Source: the human T2T-CHM13v2.0 reference genome, Homo sapiens. Taken from it: 64,000 nt of DNA. The stretch lies in contig CP086569.2 of assembly GCA_009914755.4 (NCBI GenBank), positions 32,832,001 through 32,896,000 of the forward strand. The letters are read 5' to 3'. Shown one piece after another: positions 1 through 30,969 of the stretch (positions within the stretch are counted from its first letter, which is position 1; every line of letters starts with the position of its first letter). Both the position numbers and the translations under genes were made by a program. The notes beneath the pieces are model-generated. The model was not told where the DNA came from and did not search any database. It was given only the letters and a program-made list of their open reading frames with translations.

Positions 1-3000
1 ATGGAACTTTCTTGAATGGACTGGAATCAAACGGAATGGAATGCAATGCAATCAAATGGCATGGAATAAAATAGAATGAAAGAGAATCAAATGGAATTGA
101 ATCGAATGGAATCGAATGGATTGGAAAGGAATAGAATGGAATGGAATGGAATTGACTCAAATGGAATGGACTAGAATGGAATGGATTCAAATGGAAGGCA
201 AAGGAATGGAATCTATTGGAATGGACTGTAATGGAATGGAATGGAAGGGATTGGAATGGACTCGAATGGAATGGACTGCAATAGAAAGGATTCGAATGGA
301 ATGAAAAAGAATTGAATGGAATAGAACAGAATGGAATCAAATCGAATGAAATGGAATGGAATAGAAAGGAATGGAATGAAATGGAATGGAAAGGATTCGA
401 ATGGAATGCAATCGAATGGAATGGAATCGAACGGAATGGAATAAAATGGAAGAAAACTGGCAAGAAATGGAATCGAAATGAATGGAGTGTTATGGAACGG
501 ACTCAAAAGGAATTGAATGTAATAGAATGGAGTGGAGTGGACTCGAATATAATGGACTGGAATGGAATGAAATCACATGGAATGGGAACGAATGGAATGG
601 AATGGAAAGGAATGGAATCGAATGGAAAGGAATCGAATGGAAGGGAATGAAATTGAATCAACAGGAATGGAAGAGAATAGAATAGACGGTAATGGAATGG
701 ACTCGAATAGAATGGACACGAATGCTCAAATTGAATGGACTCGAATGGAATGGAAACGAAAGGAATGTCATCGAATGGAATTGAATCGATTGGAATGAAA
801 TCGCATAGAATGGAGTGGAATCAAATGGAATTGAATCGAAAGGAAAGGAAGCGAATGGACTGAAATGAAATGGAATGGAATTGAATGGAAAGTTATGTAA
901 TGGAATAGAATGGAACGAAATTTCACGGAATGCAATCAAACTGAATGGAATCAAATCAATGGAATCAAATCAAATGGAATGGAAAGGAATTGAATGGAGT
1001 AGATTGGATTGGATGGGATTGGAATGAAATATACTGGAAAGGACTCGAATTTCATGAAACGGAATGGAATGAATTGGAACGGAACGGACTCGAATGGAAT
1101 GGAATGTCATGGAATGGCATCAAATGGAATGGCATCAAATGGAATGGAATCGAATGCAATGGAGTGCTATGGAATGGAATGGAATGCATTGGAATGGAAT
1201 GTCCTCTAATGGACTGGATTCGAGTGGAATGGAATCGAATATAATGGAGTCGAATGAAATGGAATTGAAAGGAATGGGATCGAATATAATGGAATATACT
1301 GGAATGTAATGTAATGAACTCGAATGTAATTGACTGGAATGGAATGTACATGAATGGAATGTAATCGAATGGAAAGTAATCCAATGGAATAGAATCTAAT
1401 GCAATAAAATCGACTCAGATAGAGTAGAATGTAATGGAATGGAGTGCAGTGCAATGGAATGGAATGGAATGGAATGCAATGGAATGGAATGGAATGGAAT
1501 GGAATGCAATGGGATGGTGTGGAATGGATAGTAATGGACTGGAGTGAAATGGACTGGAAAGGAATGGACTCAAATTGAAAGGGCTCGAAAGGATTGGAGT
1601 CAAATGGAATGGTCTGGAATGGAATGAACACGAATGTAATGCAATCCAATAGAATGGAATCGAATGGCATGGAATATAAAGAAATGGAATCGAAGAGAAT
1701 GGAAACAAATGGAATGGAATTGAATGGAATGGAATTGAATGGAATGGGAACGAATGGAGTGAAATTGTATGCAGTAGAAGAGAATAGAATGGAATGCAAG
1801 CGAAAGGAAAGGAATGGATTGGAATGGAATGGAATTCATTGGAATGGAAGGGAATGTAGTGTAATGGACAGGCCTGGAATAAAGTGGAATGCTACGGTCT
1901 CGAATGGAATAAAAATGTATGGAATGGAATGCAATGAAACGGAATCGAATGTCATAGAATGTAATGGAATGCAAAAAAATGGAATCCAAAATCATTGACT
2001 GGAAAGGCTGGGTGTCGAAAGGAATTGACTCCAATGGAATGGAATCGAATGGAATGGAAGTGAATAGAATCGAACTAAATCGAATGGAATGGAATTGATA
2101 GGAACGGAATGGAAAGGAATGCAATGATTTGGCATGGAATGCAATCGAATGGCATCGAATGGAATGGAATGGAATGCAATGGAATGGAATGTATTAGAAT
2201 GTAATGAACTTTAATGGTATGTACTCGAATGGATTCGACTGGAATGGAATGTTCTGGAAGTGAATGGACTCCAATGGAATGGATTCAAAAGGAATGGAAT
2301 CGTACGGAATGGAATCTAATGGAATGGAATTAAATGGAAATGAATCAAATTGAATAGCACGGAATTGAATTGAATGGAATGGAATGCAATGGAATCTAAT
2401 GAAACGGAAAGGAAAGGAATGGAATGGAATGGAATGGGCTGGAATGGAAAGGAATCGAAACGAATGGAATGGAATCGAAGTGAAGAGACTGGAATGGAAT
2501 GCACTGGAATGGAAGGGAGTGTAATGGAAGGTTCTCGAAAAAAATGGAATCGAATGGAATGGAATTGAATGGAACGGAATAGAGTCGAATGGAATTGAAT
2601 GGAATGGAATGGACTAGAGTGAAATGGAATCGAACCACAAGGAATGGACAGGAATAGAATGGTCTCGAATTGAATGGAATCGTATGGAATGGCATCAAAC
2701 GGAATGGAATGGACAGCCACGGAATGGAATGCACTCGAATGCAATGGAGTCGAAACTAATGGACTGGAATAGAATGGACTCGACTGGTACGGACTCCAAT
2801 GGAATGGAATCGAATGGAAGGGAATCGAACGGAATGGACTCGAAGGGAAAAGACTGCAATGGAAAGGTCTCGAATGGAATGGAAATTAATGGAATGGAAT
2901 GGAATCGAATGAAATGGAGTCAAAAGGAATGGAATCGAATGGCAAGAAATCGAATGTAATGGAATCGCAAGGAATTGATGTGAACGGAACGGAATGGAAT

Positions 3001-3544
3001 GGAATCCAAAGGAATGGAATAGAATGGAATGGAATCGAATGGAAAGGACTCGAATGGAAATCACTCGAATAGAATGCAATTTAATAAAATAGGATCAAAT
3101 GTAATGGAATGGAATGGAAAGGAATCGAAACGAAAGGAATGGAGACAGATGGAATGGAATGGAACAGAGAGCAATGGTATAGAATGGAATGGAATCATCT
3201 GGAATGGAATTGAATGGAATGGAATAACATGAAATGGACTGGAATGGAATGGAATGCCCTTGAATTAAATGGACTGGAATGGAATGGACTCGAACAGAGT
3301 GGAATGGAAAGTGTTGAAATAGAATGGAATGGACTGGTTTGGAATGGTCTAGTATGCAATGCAATCGACTGGCAGGGAATCAAAAGGAATGTAATCGAAT
3401 GGATTGGACTGGAATGCAATGGACTCGAATAGATTGGAAACGGAATGCAAAGGAATGGAATGGAATAGTATGGAATGGAATGGAAAGGAATGGAGTGGAA
3501 TAGACTAGAGTGGAATGGAATGGACTCGAAAGCAATGGACTGGA
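1..3544 (+). repeat. DYZ1-like 3544-bp higher-order repeat unit, copy 1
   Basis: The string 'atggaactttcttgaatggactgg' at position 1 recurs at 3545 and 7089. Every ORF in the track recurs at +3544, for example 116->3660->7204 and 945->4489->8033. Confidence 0.85.
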
Positions 3545-6500
3545 ATGGAACTTTCTTGAATGGACTGGAATCAAACGGAATGGAATGCAATGCAATCAAA
3601 TGGCATGGAATAAAATAGAATGAAAGAGAATCAAATGGAATTGAATCGAATGGAATCGAATGGATTGGAAAGGAATAGAATGGAATGGAATGGAATTGAC
3701 TCAAATGGAATGGACTAGAATGGAATGGATTCGAATGGAAGGCAAAGGAATGGAATCTATTGGAATGGACTGTAATGGAATGGAATGGAAGGGATTGGAA
3801 TGGACTCGAATGGAATGGACTGCAATAGAAAGGATTCGAATGGAATGAAAAAGAATTGAATGGAATAGAACAGAATGGAATCAAATCGAATGAAATGGAA
3901 TGGAATAGAAAGGAATGGAATGAAATGGAATGGAAAGGATTCGAATGGAATGCAATCGAATGGAATGGAATCGAACGGAATGGAATAAAATGGAAGAAAA
4001 CTGGCAAGAAATGGAATCGAAATGAATGGAGTGTTATGGAACGGACTCAAAAGGAATTGAATGTAATAGAATGGAGTGGAGTGGACTCGAATATAATGGA
4101 CTGGAATGGAATGAAATCACATGGAATGGGAACGAATGGAATGGAATGGAAAGGAATGGAATCGAATGGGAAGGAATCGAATGGAAGGGAATGAAATTGA
4201 ATCAACAGGAATGGAAGGGAATAGAATAGACGGTAATGGAATGGACTCGAATAGAATGGACACAAATGCTCAAATTGAATGGACTCGAATGCAATGGAAA
4301 CGAAAGGAATGTCATCGAATGGAATTGAATCGATTGGAATGAAATCGCATAGAATGGAGTGGAATCAAATGGAATTGAATCGAAAGGAAAGGAAGCGAAT
4401 GGACTGAAATGAAATGGAATGGAATTGAATGGAAAGTTATGTAATGGAATAGAATGGAACGAAATTTCAGGGAATACAATCAAACTGAATGGAATCAAAT
4501 CAATGGAATCAAATCAAATGGAATGGAAAGGAATTGAATGGAGTAGATTGGATTGGATGGGATTGGAATGAAATGTACTGGAAAGGACTCGAATTTCATG
4601 AAACGGAATGGAATGAATTGGAACGGAACGGACTCGAATGGAATGGAATGTCATGGAATGGCATCAAATGGAATGGCATCAAATGGAATGGAATCGAATG
4701 CAATGGAGTGCTATGGAATGGAATGGAATGCATTGGAATGGAATGTCCTCTAATGGAATGGATTCGAGTGGAATGGAATCGAATATAATGGAGTCGAATG
4801 AAATGGAATTGAAAGGAATGGGATCGAATACAATGGAATATACTGGAATGTAATGTAATGAACACGAATGTAATTGACTGGAATGGAATGTACATGAATG
4901 GAATGTAATTGAATGGAAAGTAATCCAATGGAATAGAATCTAATGCAATAAAATCGACTCAGATAGAGTAGAATGTAATGGAATGGAGTGCAGTGCAATG
5001 GAATGGAATGGAATGGAATGCAATGGAATGGAATGGAATGGAATGGAATGGGATGGAATGGTGTGGAATGGATAGTAATGGACTGGAGTGAAATGGACTG
5101 GAAAGGAATGGACTCAAATTGAAAGGGCTCGAAAGGAATGGAGTCAAATGGAATGGTCTGGAATGGAATGAACACGAATGTAATGCAATCCAATAGAATG
5201 GAATCGAATGGCATGGAATATAAAGAAATGGAATCGAAGAGAATGGAAACAAATGGAATGGAATTGAATGGAATGGAATTGAATGGAATGGGAACGAATG
5301 GAGTGAAATTGTATGCAGTAGAAGAGAATAGAATGGAATGCAAGCGAAAGGAAAGGAATGGATTGGAATGGAATGGAATTCATTGGAATGGAAGGGAATG
5401 TAGTGTAATGGACAGGCCTGGAATAAAGTGGAATGCTACGGTCTCGAATGGAATAAAAATGTATTGAATGGAATGCAATGAAACGGAATCGAATGTCATA
5501 GAATGTAATGGAATGCAAAAAAATGGAATCCAAAATCATTGACTGGAAAGGCTGGGTGTCGAAAGGAATTGACTCCAATGGAATGGAATCGAATGGAATG
5601 GAAGTGAATAGAATCGAACTAAATCGAATGGAATGGAATTGATAGGAACGGAATGGAAAGGAATGCAATGATTTGGCATGGAATGCAATCGAATGGCATC
5701 GAATGGAATGGAATGGAATGCAATGGAATGGAATGTATTAGAATGTAATGAACTTTAATGGAATGTACTCGAATGGATTCGACTGGAATGGAATGTTCTG
5801 GAAGTGAATGGACTCCAATGGAATGGATTCAAAAGGAATGGAATCGTACGGAATGGAATCTAATGGAATGGAATTAAATGGAAATGAATCAAATTGAATA
5901 GCACGGAATTGAATTGAGTGGAATCGAATGCAATGGAATCTAATGAAACGGAAAGGAAAGGAATGGAATGGAATGGAATGGGCTGGAATGGAAAGGAATC
6001 GAAACGAATGGAATGGAATCGAACTGAAGAGACTGGAATGGAATGCACTGGAATGGAAGGGAGTGTAATGGAAGGTTGTCGAAAAAAATGGAATCGAATG
6101 GAATGGAATTGAATGGAACGGAATAGAGTCGAATGGAATTGAATGGAATGGAATGGACTAGAGTGAAATGGAATCGAACCACAAGGAATGGACAGGAATA
6201 GAATGGTCTCGAATTGAATGGAATCGTATGGAATGGCATCAAACGGAATGGAATGGACAGCCACGGAATGGAATGCACTCGAATGCAATGGAGTCGAAAC
6301 TAATGGACTGGAATAGAATGGACTCGACTGGTACGGACTCCAATGGAATGGAATCGAATGGAAGGGAATCGAACGGAATGGACTCGAAGGGAAAAGACTG
6401 CAATGGAGAGGTCTCGAATGGAATGGAAATTAATGGAATGGAATGGAATCGAATGAAATGGAGTCAAAAGGAATGGAATCGAATGGCAAGAAATCGAATG

Positions 6501-7088
6501 TAATGGAATCGCAAGGAATTGATGTGAACGGAACGGAATGGAATGGAATCCAAAGGAATGGAATAGAATGGAATGGAATCGAATGGAAAGGACTCGAATG
6601 GAAATCACTCGAATAGAATGCAATTTAATAAAATAGGATCAAATGTAATGGAATGGAATGGAAAGGAATCGAAACGAAAGGAATGGAGACAGATGGAATG
6701 GAATGGAACAGAGAGCAATGGTATAGAATGGAATGGAATCATCTGGAATGGAATTGAATGGAATGGAATAACATGAAATGGACTGGAATGGAATGGAATG
6801 CCCTTGAATTAAATGGACTGGAATGGAATGGACTCGAACAGAGTGGAATGGAAAGTGTTGAAATAGAATGGAATGGACTGGTTTGGAATGGTCTAGTATG
6901 CAATGCAATCGACTGGCAGGGAATCAAAAGGAATGTAATCGAATGGATTGGACTGGAATGCAATGGACTCGAATAGATTGGAAACGGAATGCAAAGGAAT
7001 GGAATGGAATAGTATGGAATGGAATGGAAAGGAATGGAGTGGAATAGACTAGAGTGGAATGGAATGGACTCGAAAGCAATGGACTGGA
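3545..7088 (+). repeat. DYZ1-like 3544-bp higher-order repeat unit, copy 2
   Basis: Same as copy 1. Translated ORFs differ from copy 1 by 0-2 residues per roughly 70 aa, which implies about 99% nucleotide identity. Confidence 0.85.
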
Positions 7089-8469
7089 ATGGAACTTTCC
7101 TGAATGGACTGGAATCAAACGGAATGGAATGCAATGCAATCAAATGGCATGGAATAAAATAGAATGAAAGAGAATCAAATGGAATTGAATCGAATGGAAT
7201 CGAATGGATTGGAAAGGAATAGAATGGAATGGAATGGAATTGACTCAAATGGAATGGACTAGAATGGAATGGATTCGAATGGAAGGCAAAGGAATGGAAT
7301 CTATTGGAATGGACTGTAATGGAATGGAATGGAAGGGATTGGAATGGACTCGAATGGAATGGACTGCAATAGAAAGGATTCGAATGGAATGAAAAAGAAT
7401 TGAATGGAATAGAACAGAATGGAATCAAATCGAATGAAATGGAATGGAATAGAAAGGAATGGAATGAAATGGAATGGAAAGGATTCGAATGGAATGCAAT
7501 CGAATGGAATGGAATCGAACGCAATGGAATAAAATGGAAGAAAACTGGCAAGAAATGGAATCGAAATGAATGGAGTGTTATGGAACGGACTCAAAAGGAA
7601 TTGAATGTAATAGAATGGAGTGGAGTGGACTCGAATATAATGGACTGGAATGGAATGAAATCACATGGAATGGGAACGAATGGAATGGAATGGAAAGGAA
7701 TGGAATCGAATGGAAAGGAATCGAATGGAAGGGAATGAAATTGAATCAACAGGAATGGAAGGGAATAGAATAGACGGTAATGGAATGGACTCGAATAGAA
7801 TGGACACGAATGCTCAAATTGAATGGACTCGAATGGAATGGAAACGAAAGGAATGTCATCGAATGGAATTGAATCGATTGGAATGAAATCGCATAGAATG
7901 GAGTGGAATCAAATGGAATTGAATCGAAAGGAAAGGAAGCGAATGGACTGAAATGAAATGGAATGGAATTGAATGGAAAGTAATGCAATGGAATAGAATG
8001 GAACGAAATTTCACGGAATGGAATCAAACTGAATGGAATCAAATCAATGGAATCAAATCAAATGGAATGGAAAGGAATTGAATGGAGTAGATTGGATTGG
8101 ATGGGATTGGAATGAAATGTACTGGAAAGGACTCGAATTTCATGAAACGGAATGGAATGAATTGGAACGGAATGGACTCGAATGGAATGGAATGTCATGG
8201 AATGGCATCAAATGGAATGGCATCAAATGGAATGGAATCGAATGTAATGGAATGGAATGCATTGGAATGGAATGTCCTCTAATGGAATGGATTTGAGTGG
8301 AATGGAATCGAATATAATGGAGTCGAATGAAATGGAATTGAAAGGAATGGGATCGAATACAATGGAATATACTGGAATGTAATGTAATGAACTCGAATGT
8401 ATTTGACTGGAATGGAATGTACATGAATGGAATGTAATCGAATGGAAAGTAATCCAATGCAATAGAATC
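7089..8469 (+). repeat. DYZ1-like higher-order repeat unit, copy 3. It is truncated at the DYZ2 junction after 1381 bp and carries a 15-bp deletion of three pentamers near position 8248.
   Basis: It aligns to copy 2 at offset 3544 up to about 8230, then at offset 3529. Copies 1 and 2 read 'aatgcaatggagtgctatggaatggaatggaatgcattgg' where copy 3 reads 'aatgtaatggaatggaatgcattgg'. Confidence 0.8.
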
Positions 8470-9511
<1,042 letters not shown>

Positions 9512-10084
9512 AGATCCATATTTTTTAAATGAAAAAAAATTTCAAAGGTACTCTGCTTGGTACAATAATCAAATGTATAAACTGAGGAATAAAACATAAC
9601 CATGAAACCTACTTATAACTGCATATGGAAAATACAGAGGATAATTTTTTAAATAACATATTGTTAAAGCCTTAACTAGTAATTTGAAGAGTTGGCATTT
9701 GAAAGGCCAGTATGAATATACCTTCACAGCAGCAACACAGGTTCCCCATGAGAAAAAGCAAACTCAGGGAAAATAAAACCACAAAGGTTCAATCTCTTCT
9801 GACCTTTGAAAGACACAGCACAGACAGTGGTCCTTAGGACGAAGAGCAGGAGACCCCTAATTCCGTCACCATGGCGATAGGGCATAAACATTGCTGGGTA
9901 AGGGCACAATCCACATTGTGAGCTCCAACTGCTGCCAGGAAGACAGCAGTGCTTTTACATAGACCGAAAGGTCATTGAAGGCTCAGAGTTTTGTTTCAAG
10001 AACTGAATCCCAAGCCCACACGTTATTAGGCTGCGCTTCTTAAAACAAGTTATGAGATGGGAAAAAGGGCACCCACATACATAC
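9512..10084. other. Representative non-Alu, non-AT spacer of the DYZ2 unit, about 573 bp and moderately GC-containing. It is repeated once per unit.
   Basis: This is complex, non-repetitive-looking sequence between the Alu 5' end and the AT-rich segment. It contains the recurring 61-codon minus-strand ORF. The same segment appears in all 23 units. Confidence 0.8.
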
Positions 10085-11931
<1,847 letters not shown>

Positions 11932-14036
11932 AGATCCATATTTTTTAAATGAAAAAAAATTTCAAAGGTACTCTGCTTGGTACAATAATCAAATGTATAA
12001 ACTGAGGAATAAAACATAACCATGAAACCTACTTATAACTGCATATGGAAAATACAGAGGATAATTTTTTAAATAACATATTTTGAAAGCCTTAACTAGT
12101 AATTTGAAGAGTTGGCATTTGAAAGGCCAGTATGAATATACCTTCAAAGCAGCAACACAGGTTCCCCATGAGAAAAAGCAAACTCAGGGAAAATAAAACC
12201 ACAAAGGTTCAATCTCTTCTGACCTTTGAAAGACACAGCACAGACAGTGGTCCTTAGGACGAAGAGCAGGAGACCCCTAATTCCGTCACCATGGCGATAG
12301 GGCATAAACATTGCTGGGTGAGGGCACAATCCACATTGTGAGGTCCAAGTGCTGCCAGGAAGACAGGAGTGCTTTTACATAGACCGAAAGGTCATTGAAG
12401 GCTCAGAGTTTTGTTTCAAGAACTGAATCCCAAGCCCACACGTTATTAGGCTGCGCGTCTTAACACAAGTTATGAGATGGGAAAAAGAGCACCCACAAAC
12501 ATACGTATACATTATGTATATAATAATATACAGTATCATATATATAATATATATAACCTATGTATAATATTGTTTTACATCCTGCATCTTATGTTATATA
12601 TATTGTATAAAATATAATAATTGATAATATATAAGTTTTATATTTATACAATATGACATATAGTATATATTATAATTTATGACATATATAATATATGTTA
12701 TATATCATATATAGAATATATTATACGGTTAATATACTTATTAAATATAAATTATACATTATATATATTATATATAATATATCTGTTATATATAATACCC
12801 ATTATGCATAATATATATATTATGTCTATGTTATATATAGTATAAAACAACATATAATAATATATAATTGTATACATAAAATGCGACATATAATATATAT
12901 TATATTTTATGACATATGTAATATATATTATATATTATATATAATGCGTTGTATGTATAATACGTATATTAAATATATATTACATGACTATGTTATTAAT
13001 TACATGTCACATGTGTTATATATTATTTATTTTACATAGAATATACCGGTTACATACAATATATAGTATGTTACCTATAATGTATAATTTATTACATGTA
13101 AAATAAAGAATGCAATATATTATGCATAATTTATAATATACAATATGTGGAATGTGATATATATAACATATAATATATGATATATGATATAGAGTATATG
13201 ATATATAACATACAATATATGATACCTAATATATATGATATACAATATATATTTTATGATATGTATTCTATATGTTATATTTTCTGTTATATATAACTGT
13301 TTGAAATAATATATAACTGTATAATATTTTAGGTACATATGTAATATAATATATATAAGTTTATAATATATTATATATAACTATATATTATGTTATATAT
13401 ACTTTTATAACATAATTTACATAAAATATCATAATATAATATATATTATATTATTTCATATTACATAATATATATTACATATCACCCAATATAAGTAACA
13501 TACATAATATTATAATATAGATTATATTATGTTATATTAAATATCATATATATCATGTATCATATATTCTATAATATATATTATACATTATATAATATGT
13601 ATGTTGTCTATTATGTGATATATATAACTATATATATAATTATATTATTATACATATAACTAGATAAACATGTAATTCTACATATTTTCATTTATAATAT
13701 ATAGAATTATATAATCATATATAATTATTTATATTCTATAAAAAATTATATCATTATATAAATTATAATATATAAAAATTATAATATGTACTACAAATAT
13801 ATATATTATATATCATATATGATATAGTACCTTTGTTATATATCATAATACATATAAATGTGTATTATGTTATCTATAATTATATAATTTCATATATAAG
13901 ATGTATAATATTTATTATATATTATATATGTTATGTAATATATATAGTATATATAAGATGACACAGGATAAATATTATATACTATGACATATAAAATATA
14001 TGAGGTTATATGTTACATATAAGGCATAGCACATAA

Positions 14037-14351
<315 letters not shown>

Positions 14352-16455
14352 AGATCCATATTTTTTAAATGAAAAAAAATTTCAAAGGTACTCTGCTAGG
14401 TACAATAATCAAATGTATAAACTGAGGAAGAAAACATAACCATGAAACCTACTTATAACTGCATATGGAAAATACAGAGGATAATTTTTTAAATAACATA
14501 TTTTGAAAGCCTTAACTAGTAATTTGAAGAGTTGGCATTTGAAAGGCCAGTATGAATATACCTTCAAAGCAGCAACACAGGTTCCCCATGAGAAAAAGCA
14601 AACTCAGGGAAAATAAAACCACAAAGGTTCAATCTCTTCTGACCTTTGAAAGACACAGCACAGACAGTGGTCCTTAGGACGAAGAGCAGGAGACCCCTAA
14701 TTCCGTCACCATGGCGATAGGGCATAAACACTGCTGGGTGAGGGCACAATCCACATTGTGAGGTCCAACTGCTGCCAGGAAGACAGGAGTGCTTTTACAT
14801 AGACCGAAAGGTCATTGAAGGCTCAGAGTTTTGTTTCAAGAACTGAATCCCAAGCCCACACGTTATTAGGCTGCGCTTCTTAAAACAAGTTATGAGATGG
14901 GAAAAAGGGCACCAACAGACATACGTATACATTATGTATATAATAATATACAGTATCATATATATAATATATATAACCTATGTATAATATTGTTTTACAT
15001 CCTGCATCTTATACTATATATATTGTATAAAGTATAATAATTGATAATATATAAATTTTATATTTATACAATATGACATATAGTATATATTATAATTTAT
15101 GACATATATAATATATGTTATATATCATATATAGAATATATTATACGGTTAATATACGTATTAAATATAAATTATACATTATATATATTATATATAATAT
15201 ATCTGTTACATATAATACCCATTATGCATAATATATATATTATGTCTATGTTATATATAGTATAAAACAACATATAATAATATATAATTGTATATATAAA
15301 ATGCGACATATAATATATATTATATTTTATGACATATGTAATATATATTATACATTATATATAATACGTTGTATGTATAATACCTAAAATAAATATATAT
15401 TATATGACTATGTTATTAATTACATGTCACATGTGTTATATATTATATATTTTACATAGAATATACCGGTTACATACAATATATACTATGTTACCTATAA
15501 TGTATAATTTATTACATGTAAAATAAAGAATGCAATATATTATGTATAATTTATAATATACAATATGTGGAATGTGATATATATAACATATAATATATGA
15601 TATATGATATACAGTATATGATATATAACATACAATATATGATACCTAATATATATGGTATACAATATATATTTTATGATATGTATTCTATATGTTTTAT
15701 ATTCTGTTATATATAACTATTTGAAATTATATATAACTGTATAATATTTTATATAAATATGTAATATAATATATATAACTATATAATATATTATATATAA
15801 CTACATATTATGTTATATATACTTTTATAACATAATTTACATAAAATATCATAATATAATATATATTATATTATTTCATATTACATAATATATATTACAT
15901 ATCACCCAATATAAGTAACATACATAATATTATAATATAGATTATATTATGTTATATTAAATATCATATATATCATGTATCATATAATCTATAATATATA
16001 TTATACATTATATAATACGTATGTTGTCTATTATGTGATATATATAACTATATATATAATTATATTATTATACATATAACTAGATAAACATGTAATTCTA
16101 CATATTTTCATTTATAATGTATAGAATTATATAATCATATAAATTATTTATGTTCTATAAAAAATTATATCATTATATAAATTATAATATATAAAAATTA
16201 TAATATGTACTACAAATATGTATATTATATATCATATATGATATAGTACCTTTGTTATATATCATAATACATATAAATGTGTATTATGTTATCTATAATT
16301 ATATAATTTCATATATAAGATGTATAATATTTATTATATATTATATATGTTATGTAATATATATAGTATATATAAGATGACACAGGATAAATATTATATA
16401 CTATGACATATAAAATATATGAGGTTATATGTTACATATAAGGCATAGCACATAA

Positions 16456-16770
<315 letters not shown>

Positions 16771-18874
16771 AGATCCATATTTTTTAAATGAAAAAAAATT
16801 TCAAAGGTACTCTGCTTGGTACAATAATCAAATGTATAAACTGAGGAATAAAACATAACCATGAAACCTACTTATAACTGCATATGGAAAATACAGAGGA
16901 TAATTTTTTAAATAACATATTTTGAAAGCCTTAACTAGTAATTTGAAGAGTTGGCATTTGAAAGGCCAGTATGAATATACCTTCAAAGCAGCAACACAGG
17001 TTCCCCATGAGAAAAAGCAAACTCAGGGAAAATAAAACCACAAAGGTTCAATCTCTTCTGACCTTTGAAAGACACAGCACAGACAGTGGTCCTTAGGACG
17101 AAGAGCAGGAGACCCCTAATTCCGTCACCATGGCGATAGGGCATAAACACTGCTGGGTGAGGGCACAATCCACATTGTGAGGTCCAGCTGCTGCCAGGAA
17201 GACAGGAGTGCTTTTACATAGACCGAAAGGTCATTGAAGGCTCAGAGTTTTGTTTCAAGAACTGAATCCCAAGCCCACACGTTATTAGGCTGCGCTTCTT
17301 AAAACAAGTTATGAGATGGGAAAAAGGGCACCCACAAACATACGTATACATTATGTATATAATAATATACAGTATCATATATATAATATATATAACCTAT
17401 GTATAATATTGTTTTACATCCTGCATCTTATATTATATATATTGTATAAAATATAATAATTGATAATATATAAGTTTTATATTTATACAATATGACATAT
17501 AGTATAAATTATAATTTATGACATATAATATATATGTTATATATCATATATAGAATATATTATACGGTTAATATACGTATTAAATATAAATTACACATTA
17601 TATATATTATATATAATATATCTGCTATATATAATACGCATTATGCATATTATATATATTATGTCTATGTTATATATAGTATAAAACAACATATAATAAT
17701 ATATAATTGTATATATAAAATGCGACATATAATATATATTATATTTTATCACATATGTAATATATATTATATATTATATATAATACGTTGTATGTATAAT
17801 ACCTAAAATAAATATATATTATATGACTATGTTATTAATTACATGTCAGATGTGTTATATATTATATATTTTACATAGAATATACCGGTTACATACAATA
17901 TATACTATGTTACCTATAATGTATAATTTATTACATGTAAAATAAAGAATGCAATATATTATGTATAATTTATAATATACAATATGTGGAATGTGATATA
18001 TATAACATATAATATATGATATATGATATACAGTATATGATATATAACATACAATATATGATACCTAATATATATGGTATACAATATATATTTTATGATA
18101 TGTATTCTATATGTTTTATATTCTGTTATATATAACTATTTGAAATTATATATAACTGTATAATATTTTATGTAAATATGTAATATAATATATATAACTA
18201 TATAATATATTATATATAACTACATATTATGTTATATATACTTTTATAACATAATTTACATAAAATATCATAATATAATATATATTATATTATTTCATAT
18301 TACATAATATATATTACATATCACCCAATATAAGTAACATACATAATATTATAATATAGATTATATTATGTTATATTAAATATCATATATATCATGTATC
18401 ATATAATCTATAATATATATTATACATTATATAATATGTATGTTGTCTATTATGTGATATATATAACTATATATATAATTATATTATTATACATATAAAT
18501 AGATAAACATGTAATTCTACATATTTTCATTTATAATGTATAGAATTATATAATCATATAAATTATTTATATTCTATAAAAAATTATATCATTATATAAA
18601 TTATAATATATAAAAATTATAATATGTACTACAAATATATATATTATATATCATATATGATATAGTACCTTTGTTATATATCATAATACATATAAATGTG
18701 TATTATGTTATCTATAATTATATAATTTCATATATAAGATGTATAATATTTATTATATATTATATATGTTATGTAATATATATAGTATATATAAGATGAT
18801 ACAGGATAAATATTATATACTATGACATATAAAATATATGAGGTTATATGTTACATATAAGGCATAGCACATAA

Positions 18875-19189
<315 letters not shown>

Positions 19190-21292
19190 AGATCCATATT
19201 TTTTAAATGAAAAAAAATTTCAAAGGTACTCTGCTTGGTACAATAATCAAATGTATAAACTGAGGAATAAAACATAACCATGAAACCTACTTATAACTGC
19301 ATATGGAAAATACAGAGGATAATTTTTTAAATAACATATTTTGAAAGCCTTAACTAGTAATTTGAAGAGTTGGTATTTGAAAGGCCAGTATGAATATACC
19401 TTCAAAGCAGCAACACAGGTTCCCCATGAGAAAAAGCAAACTCAGGGAAAATAAAACCACAAAGGTTCAATCTCTTCTGACCTTTGAAAGACACAGCACA
19501 GACAGTGGTCCTTAGGACGAAGAGCAGGAGACCCCTAATTCCGTCACCATGGCGATAGGGCATAAACACTGCTGGGTGAGGGCACAATCCACATTGTGAG
19601 GTCCAACTGCTGCCAGGAAGACAGGAGTGCTTTTACATAGACCGAAAGGTCATTGAAGGCTCAGAGTTTTGTTTCAAGAACTGAATCCCAAGCCCACACG
19701 TTATTAGGCTGCGCTTCTTAAAACAAGTTATGAGATGGGAAAAAGGGCACCCACAAACATACGTATACATTATGTATATAATAATATACAATATCATATA
19801 TATAATATATATAACCTATGTATAATATTGTTTTACATCCTGCATCTTATATTATATATATTGTATAAAATACAATAATTGATAATATATAAGTTTTATA
19901 TTTATACAATATGACATATAGTATAAATTATAATTTATGACATATAATATATATGTTATATATCATATATAGAATATATTATACGGTTAATATACGTATT
20001 AAATATAAATTATACATTATATATATTATATATAATATATCTGCTATATATAATACGCATTATGCATATTATATATATTATGTCTATGTTATATATAGTA
20101 TAAAACAACATATAATAATATATAATTGTATATATAAAATGCGACATATAATATATAATATATTTTATGACATATGTAATATATATTATATATTATATAT
20201 AATACGTTGTATGTATAATACCTATATTAAATATATATTATATGACTATGTTATTAATTACATGTCACATATGTTATATATTATATATTTTACATAGAAT
20301 GTACCGGTTACATACAATATATACTATGTTACCTATAATGTATAATTTATTACATGTAAAATAAAGAATGCAATATATTATGTATAATTTATAATATACA
20401 ATATGTGGAATGTGATATATATAACATATAATATATGATATATGATATACAGTATATGATATATAACATACAATATATGATACCTAACATATATGGTATA
20501 CAATATATATTTTATGATATGTATTCTCTATGTTTTATATTCTCTTATATATAACTATTTGAAATTATATATAACTGAGTAATATTTTATGTAAATATGT
20601 AATATAATATATATAACTATATAATATATTATATATAACTATATATTATGTTATATATACTTTTATAACATAATTTACATAAAATATCATAATATAATAT
20701 ATATTATATTATTTCATATTACATAATATATATTACATATCACCCAATATAAGTAACATACATAATATTATAATATAGATTATATTATGTTATATTAAAT
20801 ATCATATATATCATGTATCATATATTCTATAATATATATTATACATTATATAATATGTATGTTGTCTATTATGTGATATATATAACTATATATATAATTA
20901 TTTTATTATACATATAACTAGATAAACATGTAATTCTACATATTTTCATTTATAATATATAGAATTATATAATCATATATAATTATTTATATTCTATAAA
21001 AAATTATATCATTATATAAATTATAATATATAAAAATTATAATATGTACTACAAATATATATTATATATCATATATGATATAGTACCTTTGTTATATATC
21101 ATAATACATATAAATGTGTATTATGTTATCTATAATTACATAATTTCATATATAAGATGTATAATATTTATTATATATTATATATGTTATGTAATATATA
21201 TAGTATATATAAGATGAGACAGGATAAATATTATATACTATGACATATAAAATATATGATGTTATATGTTACATATAAGGCATAGCACATAA

Positions 21293-21607
<315 letters not shown>

Positions 21608-23710
21608 AGATCCATATTTTTTAAATGAAAAAAAATTTCAAAGGTACTCTGCTTGGTACAATAATCAAATGTATAAACTGAGGAATAAAACATAACCATG
21701 AAACCTACTTATAACTGCATATGGAAAATACAGAGGATAATTTTTTAAATAACATATTTTGAAAGCCTTAACTAGTAATTTGAAGAGTTGGCATTTGAAA
21801 GGCCAGTATGAATATACCTTCAAAGCAGCAACACAGGTTCCCCATGAGAAAAAGCAAACTCAGGGAAAATAAAACCACAAAGGTTCAATCTCTTCTGACC
21901 TTTGAAAGACACAGCACAAACAGTGGTCCTTAGGACGAAGAGCAGGAGACCCATAATTCCGTCACCATGGCGATAGGGCATAAACACTGCTGGGTGAGGG
22001 CACAATCCACATTGTGAGGTCCAACTGCTGCCAGGAAGACAGGAGTGCTTTTACATAGACCGAAAGGTCATTGAAGGCTCAGAGTTTTGTTTCAAGAACT
22101 GAATCCCAAGCCCACACGTTATTAGGCTGCGCTTCTTAAAACAAGTTATGAGATGGGAAAAAGGGCACCCACAGACATACGTATACATTATGTGTATAAT
22201 AATATACAGTAACATATATATAATATATATAACCTATGTATAATATTGTTTTACATCCTGCATCTTATACTATATATATTGTATAAAATATAATAATTGA
22301 TAATATATAAATTTTATATTTATACAATATGACATATAGTATATATTATAATTTATGACATATATAATATATGTTATATATCATATATAGAATATATTAT
22401 ACGGTTAAAATACGTATTAAATATAAATTATACATTATATATATTATATATAATATATCTGTTATATATAATACCCATTATGCATAATATATATATTATG
22501 TCTATGTTATATATAGTATAAAACAACATATAATAATATATAATTGTATATATAAAATGCGACATATAATATATATTATATTTTATGACATATGTAATAT
22601 ATATTATATATTATATATAATACGTTGTATGTATAATAACTATATTAAATATATGTTATATGACTGTGTTATTAACTACATGTCACATATGTTATATATT
22701 ATATATTTTACATAGAATATACCGGTTACATACAATATATACTATGTTACGTATAATGTATAATTTATTACATGTAAAATAAAGAATGCAATATATTATG
22801 TGCAATTTATAATATACAATATGTGGAATGTGATATATATAACATATAATATATGATATATGATATACAGTATATGATATATAACATACGATATATGATA
22901 CCTAATATATATGGTATACAATATATATTTTATGATATGTATTCTATATGTTTTATATTCTGTTATATATAACTATTTGAAATTATATATAACTGTATAA
23001 TATTTTATGTAAATATGTAATATAATATATATAAATATATAATATATTATATATAACTATATATTATGTTATATATACTTTTATAACATAATTTACATAA
23101 AATATCATAATATAATATATACTATATTATTTCACATTACATAATATATATTACGTATCACCCAATATAAGTAACATACCTAATATTATAATATAGATTA
23201 TATTATGTTATATTAAATATCATATATATCATGTATCATATATTCTATAATATATATTATACATTATATAATATGTATGTTGTCTATTATGTGATATATA
23301 TAACTATATATAATTATATTATTATACATATAACTAGATAAACATGTAATTCTACATATTTTCATTTATAATATATAGAATTATATAATCATATATAATT
23401 ATTTATATTCTATAAAAAATTATATCATTATATAAATTATAATATATAAAAATTATAATATGTACTACAAATATATATATTATATATCATATATGATATA
23501 GTACCATTGTTATATATCATTATACATATAAATGTGTATTATGATATCTATAATTATATAATTTCATATATAAGTTGTATAATATGTATTATATATTATA
23601 TATATTATGTAATATATATAGTATATATAAGATGACACAGGATAAATATTATATACTATGACATATAAAATATATGAGGTTATATGTTACATATAAGGCA
23701 TAGCACATAA

Positions 23711-24025
<315 letters not shown>

Positions 24026-26130
24026 AGATCCATATTTTTTAAATGAAAAAAACTTTCAAAGGTACTCTGCTTGGTACAATAATCAAATGTATAAACTGAG
24101 GAATAAAACATAACCATGAAACCTACTTATAACTGCATATGGAAAATACAGAAGATAATTTTTTAAATAACATATTTTGAAAGCCTTAACTAGTAATTTG
24201 AAGAGTTGGCATTTGAAAGGCCAGTATGAATATACCTTCAAAGCAGCAACACAGGTTCCCCTTGAGAAAAATCAAACTCAGGGAAAATAAAACCACAAAG
24301 GTTCAATCTCTTCTGACCATTGAAAGACACAGCACAGACAGTGGTCCTTAGGACGAAGAGCAGGAGACCCCTAATTCCGTCACCATGGCGATAGGGCATA
24401 AACACTGCTGGGTGAGGGCACAATCCACATTGTGAGGTCCAACTGCTGCCAGGAAGACAGGAGTGCTTTTACATAGACCGAAAAGTCATTGAAGGCTCAG
24501 AGTTTTGTTTCAAGAACTGAATCCCAAGCCCACACGTTATTAGGCTGCGCTTCTTAAAACAAGTTATGAGATGGGAAAAAGGGCACCCACAGACATACGT
24601 ATACATTATGTATATAATAATATACAGTATCATATATATAATATATATAACCTATGTATAATATTGTTTTACATCCTGCATCTTATACTATATATATTGT
24701 ATAAAATATAATAATTGATAATATATAAATTTTATATTTATACAATATGACATATAGTATATATTATAATTTATGACATATATAATATATGTTATATATC
24801 ATATATAGAATATATTATACGGTTAATATACGTATTAAATATAAATTATACATTATATATATTATATATAATATATCTGTTATATATAATACCAATTATG
24901 CATAATATATATATTATGTCTATGTTATATATAGTATAAAACAACATATAATAATATATAATTGTATATATAAAATGCGACATATAATATATATTATATT
25001 TTATGACATATGTAATATATATTATATATTATATATAATACGTTGTATGTATAATACCTATATTAAATATATGTTATATGACTGTGTTATTAATTACATG
25101 TCACATATGTTATATATTATATATTTTACATAGAATATACCGGTTACATACAATATATACTATGTTACGTATAATGTATAATTTATTACATGTAAAATAA
25201 AGAATGCAATATATTATGTGCAATTTATAATATACAATATGTGGAATGTGATATATATAACATATAATATATGATATATGATATACAGTATATGATATAT
25301 AACATACAATATATGATACCTAATATATATGGTATACAATATATATTTTATGATATGTATTCTATATGTTTTATATTCTGTTATATATAACTATTTGAAA
25401 TTATATATAACTGTATAATATTTTATGTAAATATGTAATATAATATATATAAATATATAATATATTATATATAACTATATATTATGTTATATATACTTTT
25501 ATAACATAATTTACATAAAATATCATAATATAATATATACTATATTATTTCACATTACATAATATATATTACGTATCACCCAATATAAGTAACATACCTA
25601 ATATTATAATATAGATTATATTATGTTATATTAAATATCATATATATCATGTATCATATATTCTATAATATATATTATACATTATATAATATGTATGTTG
25701 TCTATTATGTGATATATATAACTATATATATAATTATATTATTATACATATAACTAGATAAACATGTAATTCTACATATTTTCATTTATAATATATAGAA
25801 TTATATAATCATATATAATTATTTATATTCTATAATAAATTATATCATTATATAAATTATAATATATAAAAATTATAATATGTACTACAAATATATATAT
25901 TACATATCATATATGATATAGTACCATTGTTATATATCATAATACATATAAATGTGTATTATGATATCTATAATTATATAATTTCATATATAAGATGTAT
26001 AATATGTATTATATATTATATATGTTATGTAATATATATAGTATATATAAGATGACACAGGATAAATATTATATACTATGACATATAAAATATATGAGGT
26101 TATATGTTACATATAAGGCATAGCACATAA

Positions 26131-26445
<315 letters not shown>

Positions 26446-28550
26446 AGATCCATATTTTTTAAATGAAAAAAAATTTCAAAGGTACTCTGCTTGGTACAAT
26501 AATCAAATGTATAAACTGAGGAATAAAACATAACCATGAAACCTACTTATAACTGCATATGGAAAATACAGAGGATAATTTTTTAAATAACATATTTTGA
26601 AAGTCTTAACTAGTAATTTGAAGAGTTGGCATTTGAAAGGCCAGTATGAATATACCTTCAAAGCAGCAACACAGGTTCCCCTTGAGAAAAATCAAACTCA
26701 GGGAAAATAAAACCACAAAGGTTCAATCTCTTTTGACCATTGAAAGACACAGCACAGACAGTGGTCCTTAGGACGAAGAGCAGGAGACCCCTAATTCCGT
26801 CACCATGGCGATAGGGCATAAACACTGCTGGGTGAGGGCACAATCCACATTGTGAGGTCCAACTGCTGCCAGGAAGACAGGAGTGCTTTTACATAGACCG
26901 AAAGGTCATTGAAGGCTCAGAGTTTTGTTTCAAGAACTGAATCCCAAACCCACACGTTATTAGGCTGTGCTTCTTAAAACAAGTTATGAGATGGGAAAAA
27001 GGGCACCCACAAACATACGTATACATTATGTATATAATAATATACAGTATCATATATATAATATATATAACCTATGTATAATATTGTTTTACATCCTGCA
27101 TCTTATATTATATATATTGTATAAAATATAATTATTGATAATATATAAATTTTATATTTATACATTATGACATATAGTATATATTATAATTTATGACATA
27201 TATAATATATGTTATATATCATATATAGAATATATTATACGGTTAATATACGTATTAAATATAAATTATACATTATATATATTATATATAATATATCTGT
27301 TATATATAATACCCATTATGCATAATATATATATTATGTCTATGTTATATATAGTATAAAACAACATATAATAATAAATAATTGTATATATAAAATGCGA
27401 CATATAATATATATTATATTTTATGACATATGTAATATATATTATATATTATATATAATACGTTGTATGTTTAATACCTATAATAAATATATATTATATG
27501 ACTATGTTATTAATTACATGTCACATGTGTTATATATTATATATTTTACATAGAATATACCGGTTACATACAATATATACTATGTTACCTATAATGTATA
27601 TTTTATTACATGTGAAATAAAGAATGCAATATATTATGTATAATTTATAATATACAATATGTGGAATGTGATATATATAACATATAATATATGATATATG
27701 ATATACAGTATATGATATATAACATACAATATATGATACCTAATATATATGGTATACAATATATATTTTATGATATGTATTCCATATGTTTTATATTCTG
27801 TTATAAATAATTATTTGAAATTATATATAACTGTATAATATTTTATGTAAATATGTAATATAATATATATAACTATATAATATATTATATATAACTATAT
27901 ATTATGTTATATATACTTTTATAACATAATTTACATAAAATATCATAATATAATATATATTATATTATTTCATATTACATAATATATATTACATATCACC
28001 CAATATAAGTAACATACATAATATTATAATATAGATTATATTATGTTATATTAAATATCATATATATCATGTATCATATTATCTATAATATATATTATAC
28101 ATTATATAATATGTATGTTGTCTATTATGTGATATACATAACTATATATATAATTATATTATTATACATATAACTAGATAAACATGTAATTCTACATATT
28201 TTCATTTATAATATATAGAATTATATAATCATATATAATTATTTATATTCTATAAAAAATTATATCGTTATATAAATTATAATATGTAAAAATTATAATA
28301 CGTACTACAAATATATATATTATATATCATATATGATATGGTACCTTTGTTATATATCATAATACATATAAATGTGTATTATGTTATCTATAATTATATA
28401 ATTTCATATATAAGATGTATAATATTTATTATATATTATATATGTTATGTAATATATATAGTATATATAAGATGACACAGGATAAATATTATATACTATG
28501 ACATATAAAATATATGAGGTTATATGTTACATATAAGGCATAGCACATAA

Positions 28551-28865
<315 letters not shown>

Positions 28866-30969
28866 AGATCCATATTTTTTAAATGAAAAAAAATTTCAAA
28901 GGTACTCTGCTTGGTACAATAATCAAGTGTATAAACTGAGGAATAAAACATAACCATGAAACCTACTTATAACTGCATATGGAAAATACAGAGGATAATT
29001 TTTTAAATAACATATTTTGAAAGCCTTAACTAGTAATTTGAAGAGTTGGCATTTGAAAGGCCAGTATGAATATACCTTCAAAGCAGCAACACAGGTTCCC
29101 CATGAGAAAAAGCAAACTCAGGGAAAATAAAACCACAAAGGTTCAATGTCTTCTGACCTTTGAAAGACACAGCACAGACAGTGGCCCTTAGGACGAAGAG
29201 CTGGAGACCCCTAATTCCGTCACCATGGCGATAGGGCATAAACATTGCTGGGTGAGGGCACAATCCACATTGTGAGGTCCAAGTGCTGCCAGGAAGACAG
29301 GAGTGCTTTTACATAGACCGAAAGGTCATTGAAGGCTCAGAGTTTTGTTTCAAGAACTGAATCCCAAGCCCACACGTTATTACGCTGCGCTTCTTAAAAC
29401 AAGTTATGAGATGGGAAAAAGGGCACCCACAAACATACGTATACATTATGTATATAATAATATACAGTATCATATATAAAATATATATAACCTATGTATA
29501 ATATTGTTTTACATCCTGCATCTTATATTATATATATTGTTTAAAATATAATAATTGATAATATATAAGTTTATATTTATACAATATGACATATAGTATA
29601 TATTTTAATTTATGACATATATAATATATGTTATATATCATATATAGAATATATTATACGGTTAATATACGTATTAAATATAAATTATACATTATATATA
29701 TTATATATAATATATCTGTTACATATAATACCCATTATGCATAATATATATATTATGTCTATGTTATATATAGTATAAAACAACATATAATAATATATAA
29801 TTGTATATATAAAATGAGACATATAATATATATTATATTTTATGACATATGTAATATATATTATATATTATATATAATACGTTGTATGTATAATACCTAT
29901 AATAAATATATATTATATGACTATGTTATTAATTACATGTCACATGTGTTATATATTATATATTTTACATAGAATATACCGGTTACATACAATATATACT
30001 ATGTTACCTATAATGTATAATTTATTACATGTAAAACAAAGAATGCAGTATATTATGTATAATTTATAATATACAATATGTGGAATGTGATATATATAAC
30101 ATATAATATATGATATATGATATACAGTATATGATATATACCATACAATATACGATACCTAATATATATGGTATACAATATATATTTTATGATATGTATT
30201 CTATATGTTCTATATTCTGTTATATATAACTATTTGAAATTATATATAACTGTATAATATTTTATGTAAATATGTAATATAATATATATAACTATATAAT
30301 ATATTATATATAACTATATATTATGTTATATATACTTTTATAACATAATTTATATAAAATATCATAATATAATATATATTATATTATTTCATATTACATA
30401 ATATATATTACATATCACCAAATATAAGTAACATACATAATATTATAATATAGATTATATTATGTTATATTAAATATCATATATATCATGTATCATATAT
30501 TCTATAATATATATTATACATTATATAATATGTATGTTGTCTATTATGTGATATATATAACAATATATATAATTATATTATTATACATATAACTAGATAA
30601 ACATGTAATTCTACATATTTTCATTTATAATATATAGAATTATATAATCATATATAATTATTTATATTCTATAAAAAATTATATCATTATATAAATTATA
30701 ATATATAAAAATTATAATATGTACTACAAATATATATATTATATATCATATATGATATAGTACCTTTGTTATATATCATAATACATATAAATGTGTATTA
30801 TGTTATCTATAATTATATAATTTCATATATAAGATGTATAATATTTATTATATATTATATATGTTATGTAATATATATAGTATATATAAGATGAGACAGG
30901 ATAAATATTATATACTATGACATATAAAATATATGAGGTTATATGTTACATATAAGGCATAGCACATAA

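What the first reader, a model, noticed from the sequence alone, without database searches (positions are those of the whole stretch)
8455..8490. Precise DYZ1/DYZ2 array breakpoint with 3-bp microhomology
HSat3 homology runs through 'aatagaatc' (to 8469), and the next expected base is 't' (copies 1 and 2 read 'aatagaatctaatgcaat'). DYZ2 homology begins at 'atcatatat', where the canonical AT-rich segment has 'cagtatcatatatataat'. The two overlap on 'atc' (8467-8469). The join falls roughly 30-40 bp into the canonical AT-rich segment, not at a unit boundary. That is the signature of an illegitimate or microhomology-mediated junction rather than a shared boundary element. Array-to-array junctions in Yq12 occur many times. 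Whether each DYZ1/DYZ2 switch uses the same breakpoint would show if the alternating blocks arose by duplication of one ancestral junction.
Basis: seen in the sequence. Interest (0 to 1): 0.55.

Follow-up and report, generated by a model that had tools for sequence, protein, structure and literature searches.

The report
Yq12 DYZ1-to-DYZ2 satellite array junction

Summary
DYZ1/HSat3 homology (3,544-bp period) stops exactly at 8469. DYZ2/HSat1B sequence (2,420-bp unit) follows, entering about 30-37 bp into its AT-rich part.

The "3-bp ATC microhomology" is only one of several readings. Collinear DYZ2 homology is gapless from 8470, which gives no overlap. Aligning ATC with the canonical CAGTATC needs a 4-nt gap.

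Four of the first 17 DYZ2 bases differ from canonical DYZ2, against 1.2% in the rest of the unit. All four are explained by an exact 23-nt reverse-complement match of 8467-8489 to another DYZ2 segment (8961-8983). Matches of this kind start at 0.1-0.4% of positions in the AT-rich sequence.

My best reading is a template-switch or templated-insertion junction, with 3-nt microhomology on each side (ATC, TAT). The first DYZ2 unit also has an in-register 768-bp deletion between two paralogous AT-rich sub-blocks.

I could not retrieve any other Yq12 junction, so the single-origin question stays untested. Published work already shows that multi-block duplications amplify the alternating pattern. Low to moderate interest.

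The parts
1..8469 (+). DYZ1 / HSat3A6-type array: 2.39 units of 3,544 bp on the GGAAT-rich strand, with the last unit truncated at 8469
   Evidence: Self-alignment period is 3,544 bp and homology ends exactly at 8469. There are 544 GGAAT and 0 ATTCC, and one GGCC (HaeIII) site per unit at 1871 and 5415. Copies are 98.8-99.35% identical.
8467..8469 (.). ATC: the last three DYZ1 bases. They are shared with the inverted DYZ2 template, and also with canonical DYZ2 consensus 5-7 if a 4-nt gap is allowed. This is candidate microhomology.
8470..8486 (-). 17-nt patch that departs from collinear DYZ2 at 4 positions (8475, 8476, 8485, 8486). Together with its flanks (8467-8489) it is an exact reverse complement of DYZ2 consensus 1271-1293. 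Candidate templated inverted insertion.
   Evidence: The reverse-complement 23-mer is present in 21 of 23 units. Non-collinear exact matches of at least 20 nt start at 0.4% of AT-rich positions, and of at least 23 nt at 0.13%. All four differences are private to unit 1.
8961..8983 (+). Nearest copy of the putative template (ATATATTATATATCATATATGAT). It lies 472 bp downstream in unit 1 and contains a 16-nt perfect palindrome, ATATCATATATGATAT.
   Evidence: for the occurrences. The sequence was read.
8487..8553 (+). DYZ2 unit 1, sub-block A portion (consensus 29-95). TAT at 8487-8489 is shared with the patch. There is one private difference, at 8500.
8553..8554 (.). Joint of a 768-bp internal deletion (consensus 96-863 missing) between in-register positions of the paralogous AT-rich sub-blocks A and B
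   Evidence: The last A-specific base is 8552 and the first B-specific base is 8554. The global A/B alignment pairs consensus 95 with 863. Unit 1 is 1,641 bp and aligns without gaps.
8554..10110 (+). Remainder of DYZ2 unit 1 (consensus 864-2420): AT-rich sub-block B, antisense 5'-truncated Alu, and the HSATI/GC-richer part
10111..64000 (+). 22 full DYZ2 / HSat1B units (2,411-2,420 bp as partitioned), followed by a partial unit that runs to the end of the window

Best explanation
The feature is a non-homologous boundary between a DYZ1 (HSat3A6) array and a DYZ2 (HSat1B) array of the human Yq12 heterochromatin. It has no function of its own; it is a rearrangement scar.

Proposed order of events:
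1. A broken or stalled DYZ1 end, ending ...AATAGAATC, annealed through ATC to the opposite strand of a DYZ2 AT-rich segment (consensus 1293 to 1271).
2. About 17-20 nt were copied from that template.
3. Synthesis switched again, on TAT, to DYZ2 consensus position 29 and continued collinearly.
This is a microhomology-mediated template-switch or templated-insertion junction, of the MMBIR/FoSTeS or polymerase-theta end-joining type.

Separately, or in the same event, unit 1 lost 768 bp by exchange between in-register positions of its two 77%-identical AT-rich sub-blocks.

The edge then stayed outside array homogenisation. According to published work, the DYZ1-DYZ2 composite was multiplied by unequal sister-chromatid exchange.

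Shown: the coordinates, the inverted 23-nt identity, the deletion, and the edge divergence. Inferred: the repair pathway, the order of events, and the amplification.
For: - The DYZ1 end is exact at 8469.
- Unit 1 aligns gaplessly to consensus 12-95 + 864-2420 with 25 differences. Five of them fall in 8470-8500, and 4 fall in the first 17 nt, against 20 in the other 1,610 nt. By my calculation the binomial chance of 4 or more in 17 at 1.24% is about 6e-5.
- The same 20-nt stretch shows no indels and at most one substitution in any of the 23 canonical copies, so it is not locally hypermutable.
- 8467-8489 is an exact reverse complement of consensus 1271-1293, present in 21 of 23 units and nearest at 8961-8983.
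- Only 0.4% of AT-rich start positions have a non-collinear exact match of 20 nt or more, and 0.13% have one of 23 nt or more. Markov-2 random 20-mers match at 0.15%.
- Only 25 of 392,445 possible 4-substitution variants of the canonical 20-mer equal another 20-mer of the unit.
- The deletion joint is in register between the paralogs.
- Unit 1 has 21 private variants. Units near the junction differ from each other by 17-81 sites, while units 15-17 differ by 3-7. That is an old, poorly homogenised edge, and it matches the edge-to-centre gradient reported by Hallast et al..
- Amplification by iterative duplications spanning several blocks, and by unequal exchange, is reported in the T2T-Y preprint and the Hallast supplement.
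Against: - There is only one junction to look at, and it lies in very AT-rich, low-complexity sequence.
- 13 of the 17 patch bases also fit the collinear reading, so only 4 bases plus the ATC extension discriminate between the two.
- Each 3-nt microhomology is individually within chance expectation.
- A DYZ2 variant carrying this sequence natively elsewhere on the Y, or a later short gene conversion, would give the same sequence.
- Neither the junction nor the template folds better than shuffled sequence as single-stranded DNA, so there is no structural driver.
- No independent copy of the junction was recovered.
Confidence: 0.45

Rival explanations
1. Simple one-step illegitimate join. DYZ1 ending in ATC was joined to DYZ2 at consensus 5-7 (CAGT-ATC-ATATAT) using 3-bp microhomology (MMEJ). 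A 4-nt deletion and 3 substitutions followed in the first 20 nt. Alternatively, it was a blunt NHEJ join at consensus 12 followed by 4 substitutions.
For: - Canonical CAGTATCATATATATAAT sits at the collinear phase in 10 units.
- ATCATATAT is a 9-nt exact match in the gapped alignment.
- The gapless alignment gives 16 of 20 matches from 8470.
- It needs only one rearrangement.
Against: - It requires an unusual cluster of later mutations exactly at the joint: 4 in 17 nt against 1.24% elsewhere.
- That stretch shows no indel and almost no substitution in the 23 other copies.
- It treats the exact 23-nt inverted identity as coincidence (about 0.1-0.4%; 25 of 392,445).
- The triplet is not ATC in 12 of the 23 canonical copies (11 GTC, one AAC).
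Confidence: 0.3
2. The join was simple, and the 17-20-nt patch was written later. A short-tract interlocus gene conversion came from the inverted, partly palindromic DYZ2 segment (consensus 1271-1293) of the same or a neighbouring unit.
For: - The exact inverted identity.
- Pedigree studies report interlocus gene conversion as frequent in Yq12. 29% of de novo SNVs match non-orthologous sites, and 17% of events are consistent with conversion.
Against: - Conversion between inverted, only roughly 80%-similar 20-mers is unusual.
- None of the 22 full units shows this conversion at the same site.
- The identity extends into the DYZ1-derived ATC. That is expected for a template switch at the join, but is a coincidence under later conversion.
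Confidence: 0.15
3. Assembly artefact: the boundary, the patch or the 768-bp deletion reflects a misjoin or collapse in a hard-to-assemble satellite region.
For: [quoted passage not shown] The source of the window is unknown.
Against: - A sharp, single-base transition with normal repeat structure on both sides.
- Unit 1 is 1,641 bp long, within the published DYZ2 size range of 1,275-3,719 bp.
- The deletion joint is in register between paralogs.
- The many private variants of unit 1 argue for a real, old locus.
Confidence: 0.04

Closest known systems
Alternating DYZ1 (HSat3A6) / DYZ2 (HSat1B) arrays of human Yq12, as described in the T2T-Y and 43-Y-assembly papers
   Same: - Unit lengths of 3,544 and 2,420 bp.
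- Pentamer composition and one HaeIII site per DYZ1 unit.
- Tripartite DYZ2: AT-rich part, a 291-bp 5'-truncated Alu about 22% diverged, and a GC-richer HSATI part, with the ACATACG marker.
- Units at the array edge more diverged than interior units.
   Different: Those papers describe blocks at the level of arrays and dot plots; boundaries were "manually refined". In the texts I could search I found no base-level description of the DYZ1/DYZ2 junction, its microhomology or a templated patch.
Microhomology-mediated template-switch junctions (FoSTeS/MMBIR) and polymerase-theta end joining with templated insertions
   Same: - A short inserted stretch that is an exact copy, here inverted, of sequence a few hundred bp away.
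- 3-nt microhomology at both switch points.
- No extended homology between the two joined partners.
   Different: The enzymology and timing cannot be known for an ancient germline event. The evidence is a single junction in low-complexity DNA. The pre-rearrangement sequences are inferred from repeat consensus, not observed.
Unequal (homeologous) exchange or slippage between internal sub-repeats of a satellite unit
   Same: The 768-bp deletion in unit 1 joins in-register positions of two 77%-identical sub-blocks. Published DYZ2 length variation is attributed mainly to expansion or contraction of the AT-rich segment.
   Different: Here it occurs only in the junction-proximal unit of this array. 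The exchange point is defined to a single shared base.

Membership tests
DYZ1 / HSat3A6 (Yq12) | Tandem unit of about 3.5 kb (published mean 3,543 bp) | tested here: met
   Period is 3,544 bp.
DYZ1 / HSat3A6 (Yq12) | Built from diverged GGAAT/CATTC pentamers, with one HaeIII (GGCC) site per unit | tested here: met
   544 GGAAT and 0 ATTCC in 1-8469. GGCC occurs only at 1871 and 5415.
DYZ1 / HSat3A6 (Yq12) | Sequence identity to the published Y-specific consensus, or placement on the Y | not testable with these tools
   No human reference or consensus sequence is available in the tool collections.
DYZ2 / HSat1B | Unit of about 2.4 kb (published consensus 2,420 bp) | tested here: met
   The majority consensus of 22 units is 2,420 bp. 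Units are 2,411-2,420 bp.
DYZ2 / HSat1B | Tripartite unit: AT-rich part, 5'-truncated Alu of about 290 bp and about 20% diverged, and an HSATI / GC-richer part | tested here: met
   Alu positions 13-288 align to consensus 1821-1531 (minus strand), 291 nt at 77.7% identity. Sub-threshold Rfam hits to mir-1268 fall in that part. The composition is shown.
DYZ2 / HSat1B | [quoted passage not shown] | tested here: met
   Consensus 2389-2395. The marker is described.
   DYZ1 copies and the junction share nothing after 8469. DYZ2 copies share nothing before 8467.
   ATC overlaps canonical DYZ2 only with a 4-nt gap. The gapless alignment gives 0 nt of overlap.
Templated-insertion / template-switch junction (MMBIR, FoSTeS, TMEJ) | An inserted stretch with an identifiable nearby template, beyond chance | tested here: met
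   23 of 23 nt inverted identity to 8961-8983. Background frequency is 0.13-0.4%.
Templated-insertion / template-switch junction (MMBIR, FoSTeS, TMEJ) | Microhomology at each switch point | tested here: met
   ATC (8467-8469) and TAT (8487-8489), read. Each is individually compatible with chance.
Templated-insertion / template-switch junction (MMBIR, FoSTeS, TMEJ) | The insertion arose at the time of joining (absent from parental sequences, present in all descendants) | not testable with these tools
   No other junction copies were retrievable.
Unequal homologous exchange within the DYZ2 unit (the 768-bp deletion) | The breakpoint joins equivalent positions of two paralogous segments | tested here: met
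   Consensus 95 pairs with 863 in the global A/B alignment. The switch lies between 8552 and 8554.

The most novel reading that the evidence does not exclude
The three-part scar consists of the DYZ1 break at this phase, the 17-nt inverted templated patch, and the 768-bp deleted first unit. It may be the founder junction carried by most or all DYZ1-to-DYZ2 boundaries of Yq12 in all men. If so, the alternating architecture descends from a single complex template-switch event. Private variants around the scar could then be used as a clock and pedigree of block amplification.
Probability: 0.3. Interest if true: 0.4.

Novelty: already known. Interest (0 to 1): 0.25.

Why it matters
DYZ1/DYZ2 boundaries are the only fixed landmarks in roughly 30 Mb of otherwise homogeneous Yq12 satellite. 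If the scar described here recurs at every boundary, it proves a single origin of the alternating pattern. It would also give a cheap marker for tracing how blocks were duplicated, lost and inverted among Y lineages. If different boundaries carry different scars, new DYZ1/DYZ2 joins arise recurrently, which would be more surprising.

The finding itself does not change current understanding. The arrays, their alternation and their amplification by unequal exchange are all published. Only the base-level anatomy of the joint appears undescribed in the literature I could search.

Tried and rejected
1. I looked for other copies of the junction as human contamination. Two patterns, AATAGAATC-N{2,14}-GATATATAATATATGTATAAT and TCATATATGATATATAATATATGTATAAT, gave 0 hits in metagenome contigs and genome contigs. 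A third pattern gave 0 in viral contigs. Megablast of 8250-8750 found nothing in plasmids or phages. These negatives say nothing about the Y, because junctions would be about 1 in 140 of DYZ units and the collections may have been decontaminated.

2. I tried a protein route. The minus-strand ORF 8223-8471 has a start codon created by the junction. It is not on record, and it has no homologs in the protein collection.

3. I tested a hairpin or cruciform driver. DNA folding of the junction, the template and the canonical DYZ2 site is no better than shuffled sequence, with z-scores from -0.26 to +0.55. Rejected.

4. I tested whether the terminal DYZ1 copy is strongly diverged. The 95.7% from BLAST was caused by one 15-nt deletion after 8241. 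Substitution identity is 98.8-98.9% against 99.1-99.35% between copies 1 and 2, so there is only a slight edge effect on the DYZ1 side.

5. I considered an alternative DYZ1 breakpoint 16 nt later (AATGCAATAgAATC against canonical AATGCAATAaAATC). It needs an extra 15-nt deletion for the same number of mismatches, so I rejected it as less parsimonious (read).

6. I searched the literature for a base-level junction catalogue (reading). None was found. One wrong PMC id and one unavailable DOI cost two look-ups.

Full report
**What is in the window**

Positions 1-8469 are a GGAAT-based satellite. There are 544 GGAAT and no ATTCC, and one HaeIII site per unit at 1871 and 5415. The higher-order period is 3,544 bp, and copies are 98.8-99.35% identical.

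Positions 8470-64000 are 23 units of a 2.42-kb repeat.
- The majority consensus of the 22 full units is 2,420 bp.
- On the window's plus strand it runs as follows: about 1,530 bp of more than 85% A+T; an antisense Alu; then a GC-richer part ending ...ACATACG.
- Sub-threshold Rfam hits to mir-1268, which I recall as an Alu-derived family, fall in that part.

These properties match the published descriptions.
- DYZ1/HSat3A6 has a mean unit of 3,543 bp.
- DYZ2/HSat1B has a 2,420-bp consensus: an AT-rich repeat, a 5'-truncated Alu of about 290 bp and about 20% diverged, then HSATI, with ACATACG at the HSATI/AT-rich intersection.
- Sources: the Hallast et al. preprint 10.1101/2022.12.01.518658 and the Rhie et al. 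preprint 10.1101/2022.12.01.518724.

I could not compare the window with a human reference, so placement on Yq12 rests on these features.

**Checking the observation: the DYZ1 side**

Positions 7870-8469 align to 782-1396 and 4326-4940, and both alignments stop at exactly 8469. The two upstream copies continue TAATGCAATAAAATCG, whereas the window continues ATATATGATATATAAT. The break lies 475 bp before the position of the next HaeIII site.

**Checking the observation: the DYZ2 side**

- The join lies 30-37 bp after ACATACG, so "30-40 bp into the AT-rich segment, not at a unit boundary" is right.
- The overlap on ATC is not unique. In the gapless register, 8470 pairs with consensus position 12. 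The whole first unit then aligns without a single gap. That leaves canonical ATC (consensus 5-7) four bases out of register.
- Overlaying ATC needs a 4-nt gap plus three mismatches. By hand, under BLAST-like scoring, the two alignments score about the same.
- The triplet is not ATC in 12 of the 23 canonical copies: 11 read GTC and one reads AAC.
- By my calculation, a 3-nt overlap is expected in about 5% of random blunt joins.

High-identity in-phase homology to later units begins only at about 8526, and in a different phase from 8477-8530. The explanation is that the AT-rich part of DYZ2 consists of two paralogous sub-blocks of about 767 bp.
- Sub-block A is consensus 1-767 and sub-block B is 768-1534. 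They are 77% identical, with an alignment score of 222 against a mean of 117 (maximum 140) for shuffled sequence.
- Unit 1 is a hybrid of consensus 12-95 joined to 864-2420. It is 1,641 bp long, so 768 bp are missing.
- The last A-specific base is 8552 and the first B-specific base is 8554.
- The global A/B alignment pairs consensus 95 with 863, so the deletion joins equivalent positions of the two paralogs. This is what homeologous unequal exchange or slippage would produce.
- The resulting unit length is inside the published DYZ2 range of 1,275-3,719 bp. That variation is attributed mainly to the AT-rich segment.

Unit 1 differs from the consensus at 25 of 1,641 positions. Five of these fall in 8470-8500, and four fall in the first 17 nt (8475, 8476, 8485, 8486). 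The other 1,610 nt carry 20 differences, or 1.24%. By my calculation, the binomial chance of four or more in 17 at that rate is about 6e-5.

The same stretch shows no indel and at most one substitution in any of the other 23 copies. It is therefore not a locally unstable tract.

An unbiased short-word search showed that 8470-8489 is an exact reverse complement of a DYZ2 segment about 500 bp downstream. Extended, 8467-8489 (ATCATATATGATATATAATATAT) equals the reverse complement of consensus 1271-1293. That segment is present in 21 of 23 units, the nearest at 8961-8983.

Such matches are rare even in this AT-rich DNA.
- Non-collinear exact matches of 20 nt or more start at 0.4% of AT-rich positions, and of 23 nt or more at 0.13%.
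- Markov-2 random 20-mers match at 0.15%, and no random 23-mer matched in 20,000 trials.
- Only 25 of the 392,445 possible four-substitution variants of the canonical 20-mer coincide with another 20-mer of the unit.

All four discriminating bases, plus the DYZ1-derived ATC, agree with the inverted segment. TAT (8487-8489) is shared between the inverted segment and collinear DYZ2.

**Most likely mechanism**

I read the junction as follows: DYZ1, then [ATC], then a 17-nt inverted DYZ2 copy, then [TAT], then DYZ2 from consensus 29. This is a two-switch, microhomology-flanked templated insertion of the kind ascribed to MMBIR/FoSTeS or polymerase-theta end joining. That attribution rests on general knowledge of those pathways, not on anything tested here.

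My confidence is about 0.45. There is only one junction, the DNA is low-complexity, 13 of the 17 patch bases also fit the collinear reading, and each 3-nt microhomology is unremarkable on its own.

The rivals are:
- a later short gene conversion from the inverted segment (0.15), since conversion is reported as frequent in Yq12;
- misassembly (0.04).

Secondary structure is not a driver. The junction, the template and the canonical site fold no better than shuffled sequence.

**Age and propagation**

- Unit 1 carries 21 variants found in no other unit.
- Units 2-13, next to the junction, differ from each other at 17-81 sites. Units 15-17 differ at only 3-7.
- This is the edge-to-centre homogenisation gradient already reported. 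It argues that the edge is old and stable.
- The T2T-Y preprint reports 86 alternating blocks and iterative tandem duplications of up to 5 Mb spanning several DYZ1 and DYZ2 blocks, attributed to unequal exchange.
- The Hallast supplement and a 2026 population study attribute Yq12 size differences to gains and losses of whole arrays.

It is therefore likely, but not shown here, that many boundaries are copies of one another.

I tried to recover other junction copies as human contamination in the metagenome, prokaryote-genome and viral collections. I also tried plasmid and phage records, and an ORF whose start codon is created by the junction. All returned nothing. These negatives are uninformative about the Y.

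I found no base-level description of DYZ1/DYZ2 junctions in the searchable literature. The nearest statements are that boundaries were "manually refined", and that one inversion breakpoint lies at a DYZ2 AT-rich/DYZ1 intersection.

**Verdict**

The boundary is real and precisely located, and its non-homologous nature is supported. The specific 3-bp microhomology claim is alignment-dependent. The sequence favours a more complex, templated joint plus an in-register 768-bp deletion in the first unit.

The kind of object is well known, and the proposed follow-up is routine with public assemblies. Interest is low to moderate (0.25). The anatomy given here provides a concrete three-part signature to search for.

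Noticed in passing
window 10111-12530 (any DYZ2 unit); consensus 1-767 vs 768-1534: The AT-rich part of DYZ2 is not a featureless simple repeat. It is two diverged tandem sub-blocks of about 767 bp, 77% identical, with an alignment score of 222 against a mean of 117 (maximum 140) for shuffled sequence.
   Followed up: partly
window 10111-63309: There is a homogenisation gradient in the DYZ2 array. Units 2-13, next to the junction, differ pairwise at 17-81 sites. Units 15-17 (41548-48804) differ at only 3-7 sites, which suggests a recent local amplification away from the edge. Unit pairs 6/11, 7/8 and 12/13 are closer to each other than to their neighbours.
   Followed up: partly
window 8241: The terminal, truncated DYZ1 copy lacks 15 nt that are present in the two upstream copies. 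Otherwise it is 98.8-98.9% identical to them.
   Followed up: yes
window 8223-8471 (minus strand): The junction itself creates an ATG (C8469 plus A8470 and T8471, read on the minus strand). This ATG opens an 82-codon ORF running into the HSat3 array. Canonical DYZ1 has a TAG there. No such protein or homolog is on record, so it is almost certainly meaningless.
   Followed up: yes
window 9324-9390 and 11744-11810 (minus strand): Sub-threshold Rfam matches to mir-1268 (33-39 bits against a gathering score of 83) lie in the Alu-derived part of DYZ2. They reflect Alu ancestry rather than a miRNA gene.
   Followed up: partly
window 34304-39132 and 56061-58471: DYZ2 units 12-13 carry 5-6-nt length differences, and differ from each other at only 22 sites. 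Unit 21 carries a 9-nt length difference. These are small indel variants that mark sub-families of units.
   Followed up: no
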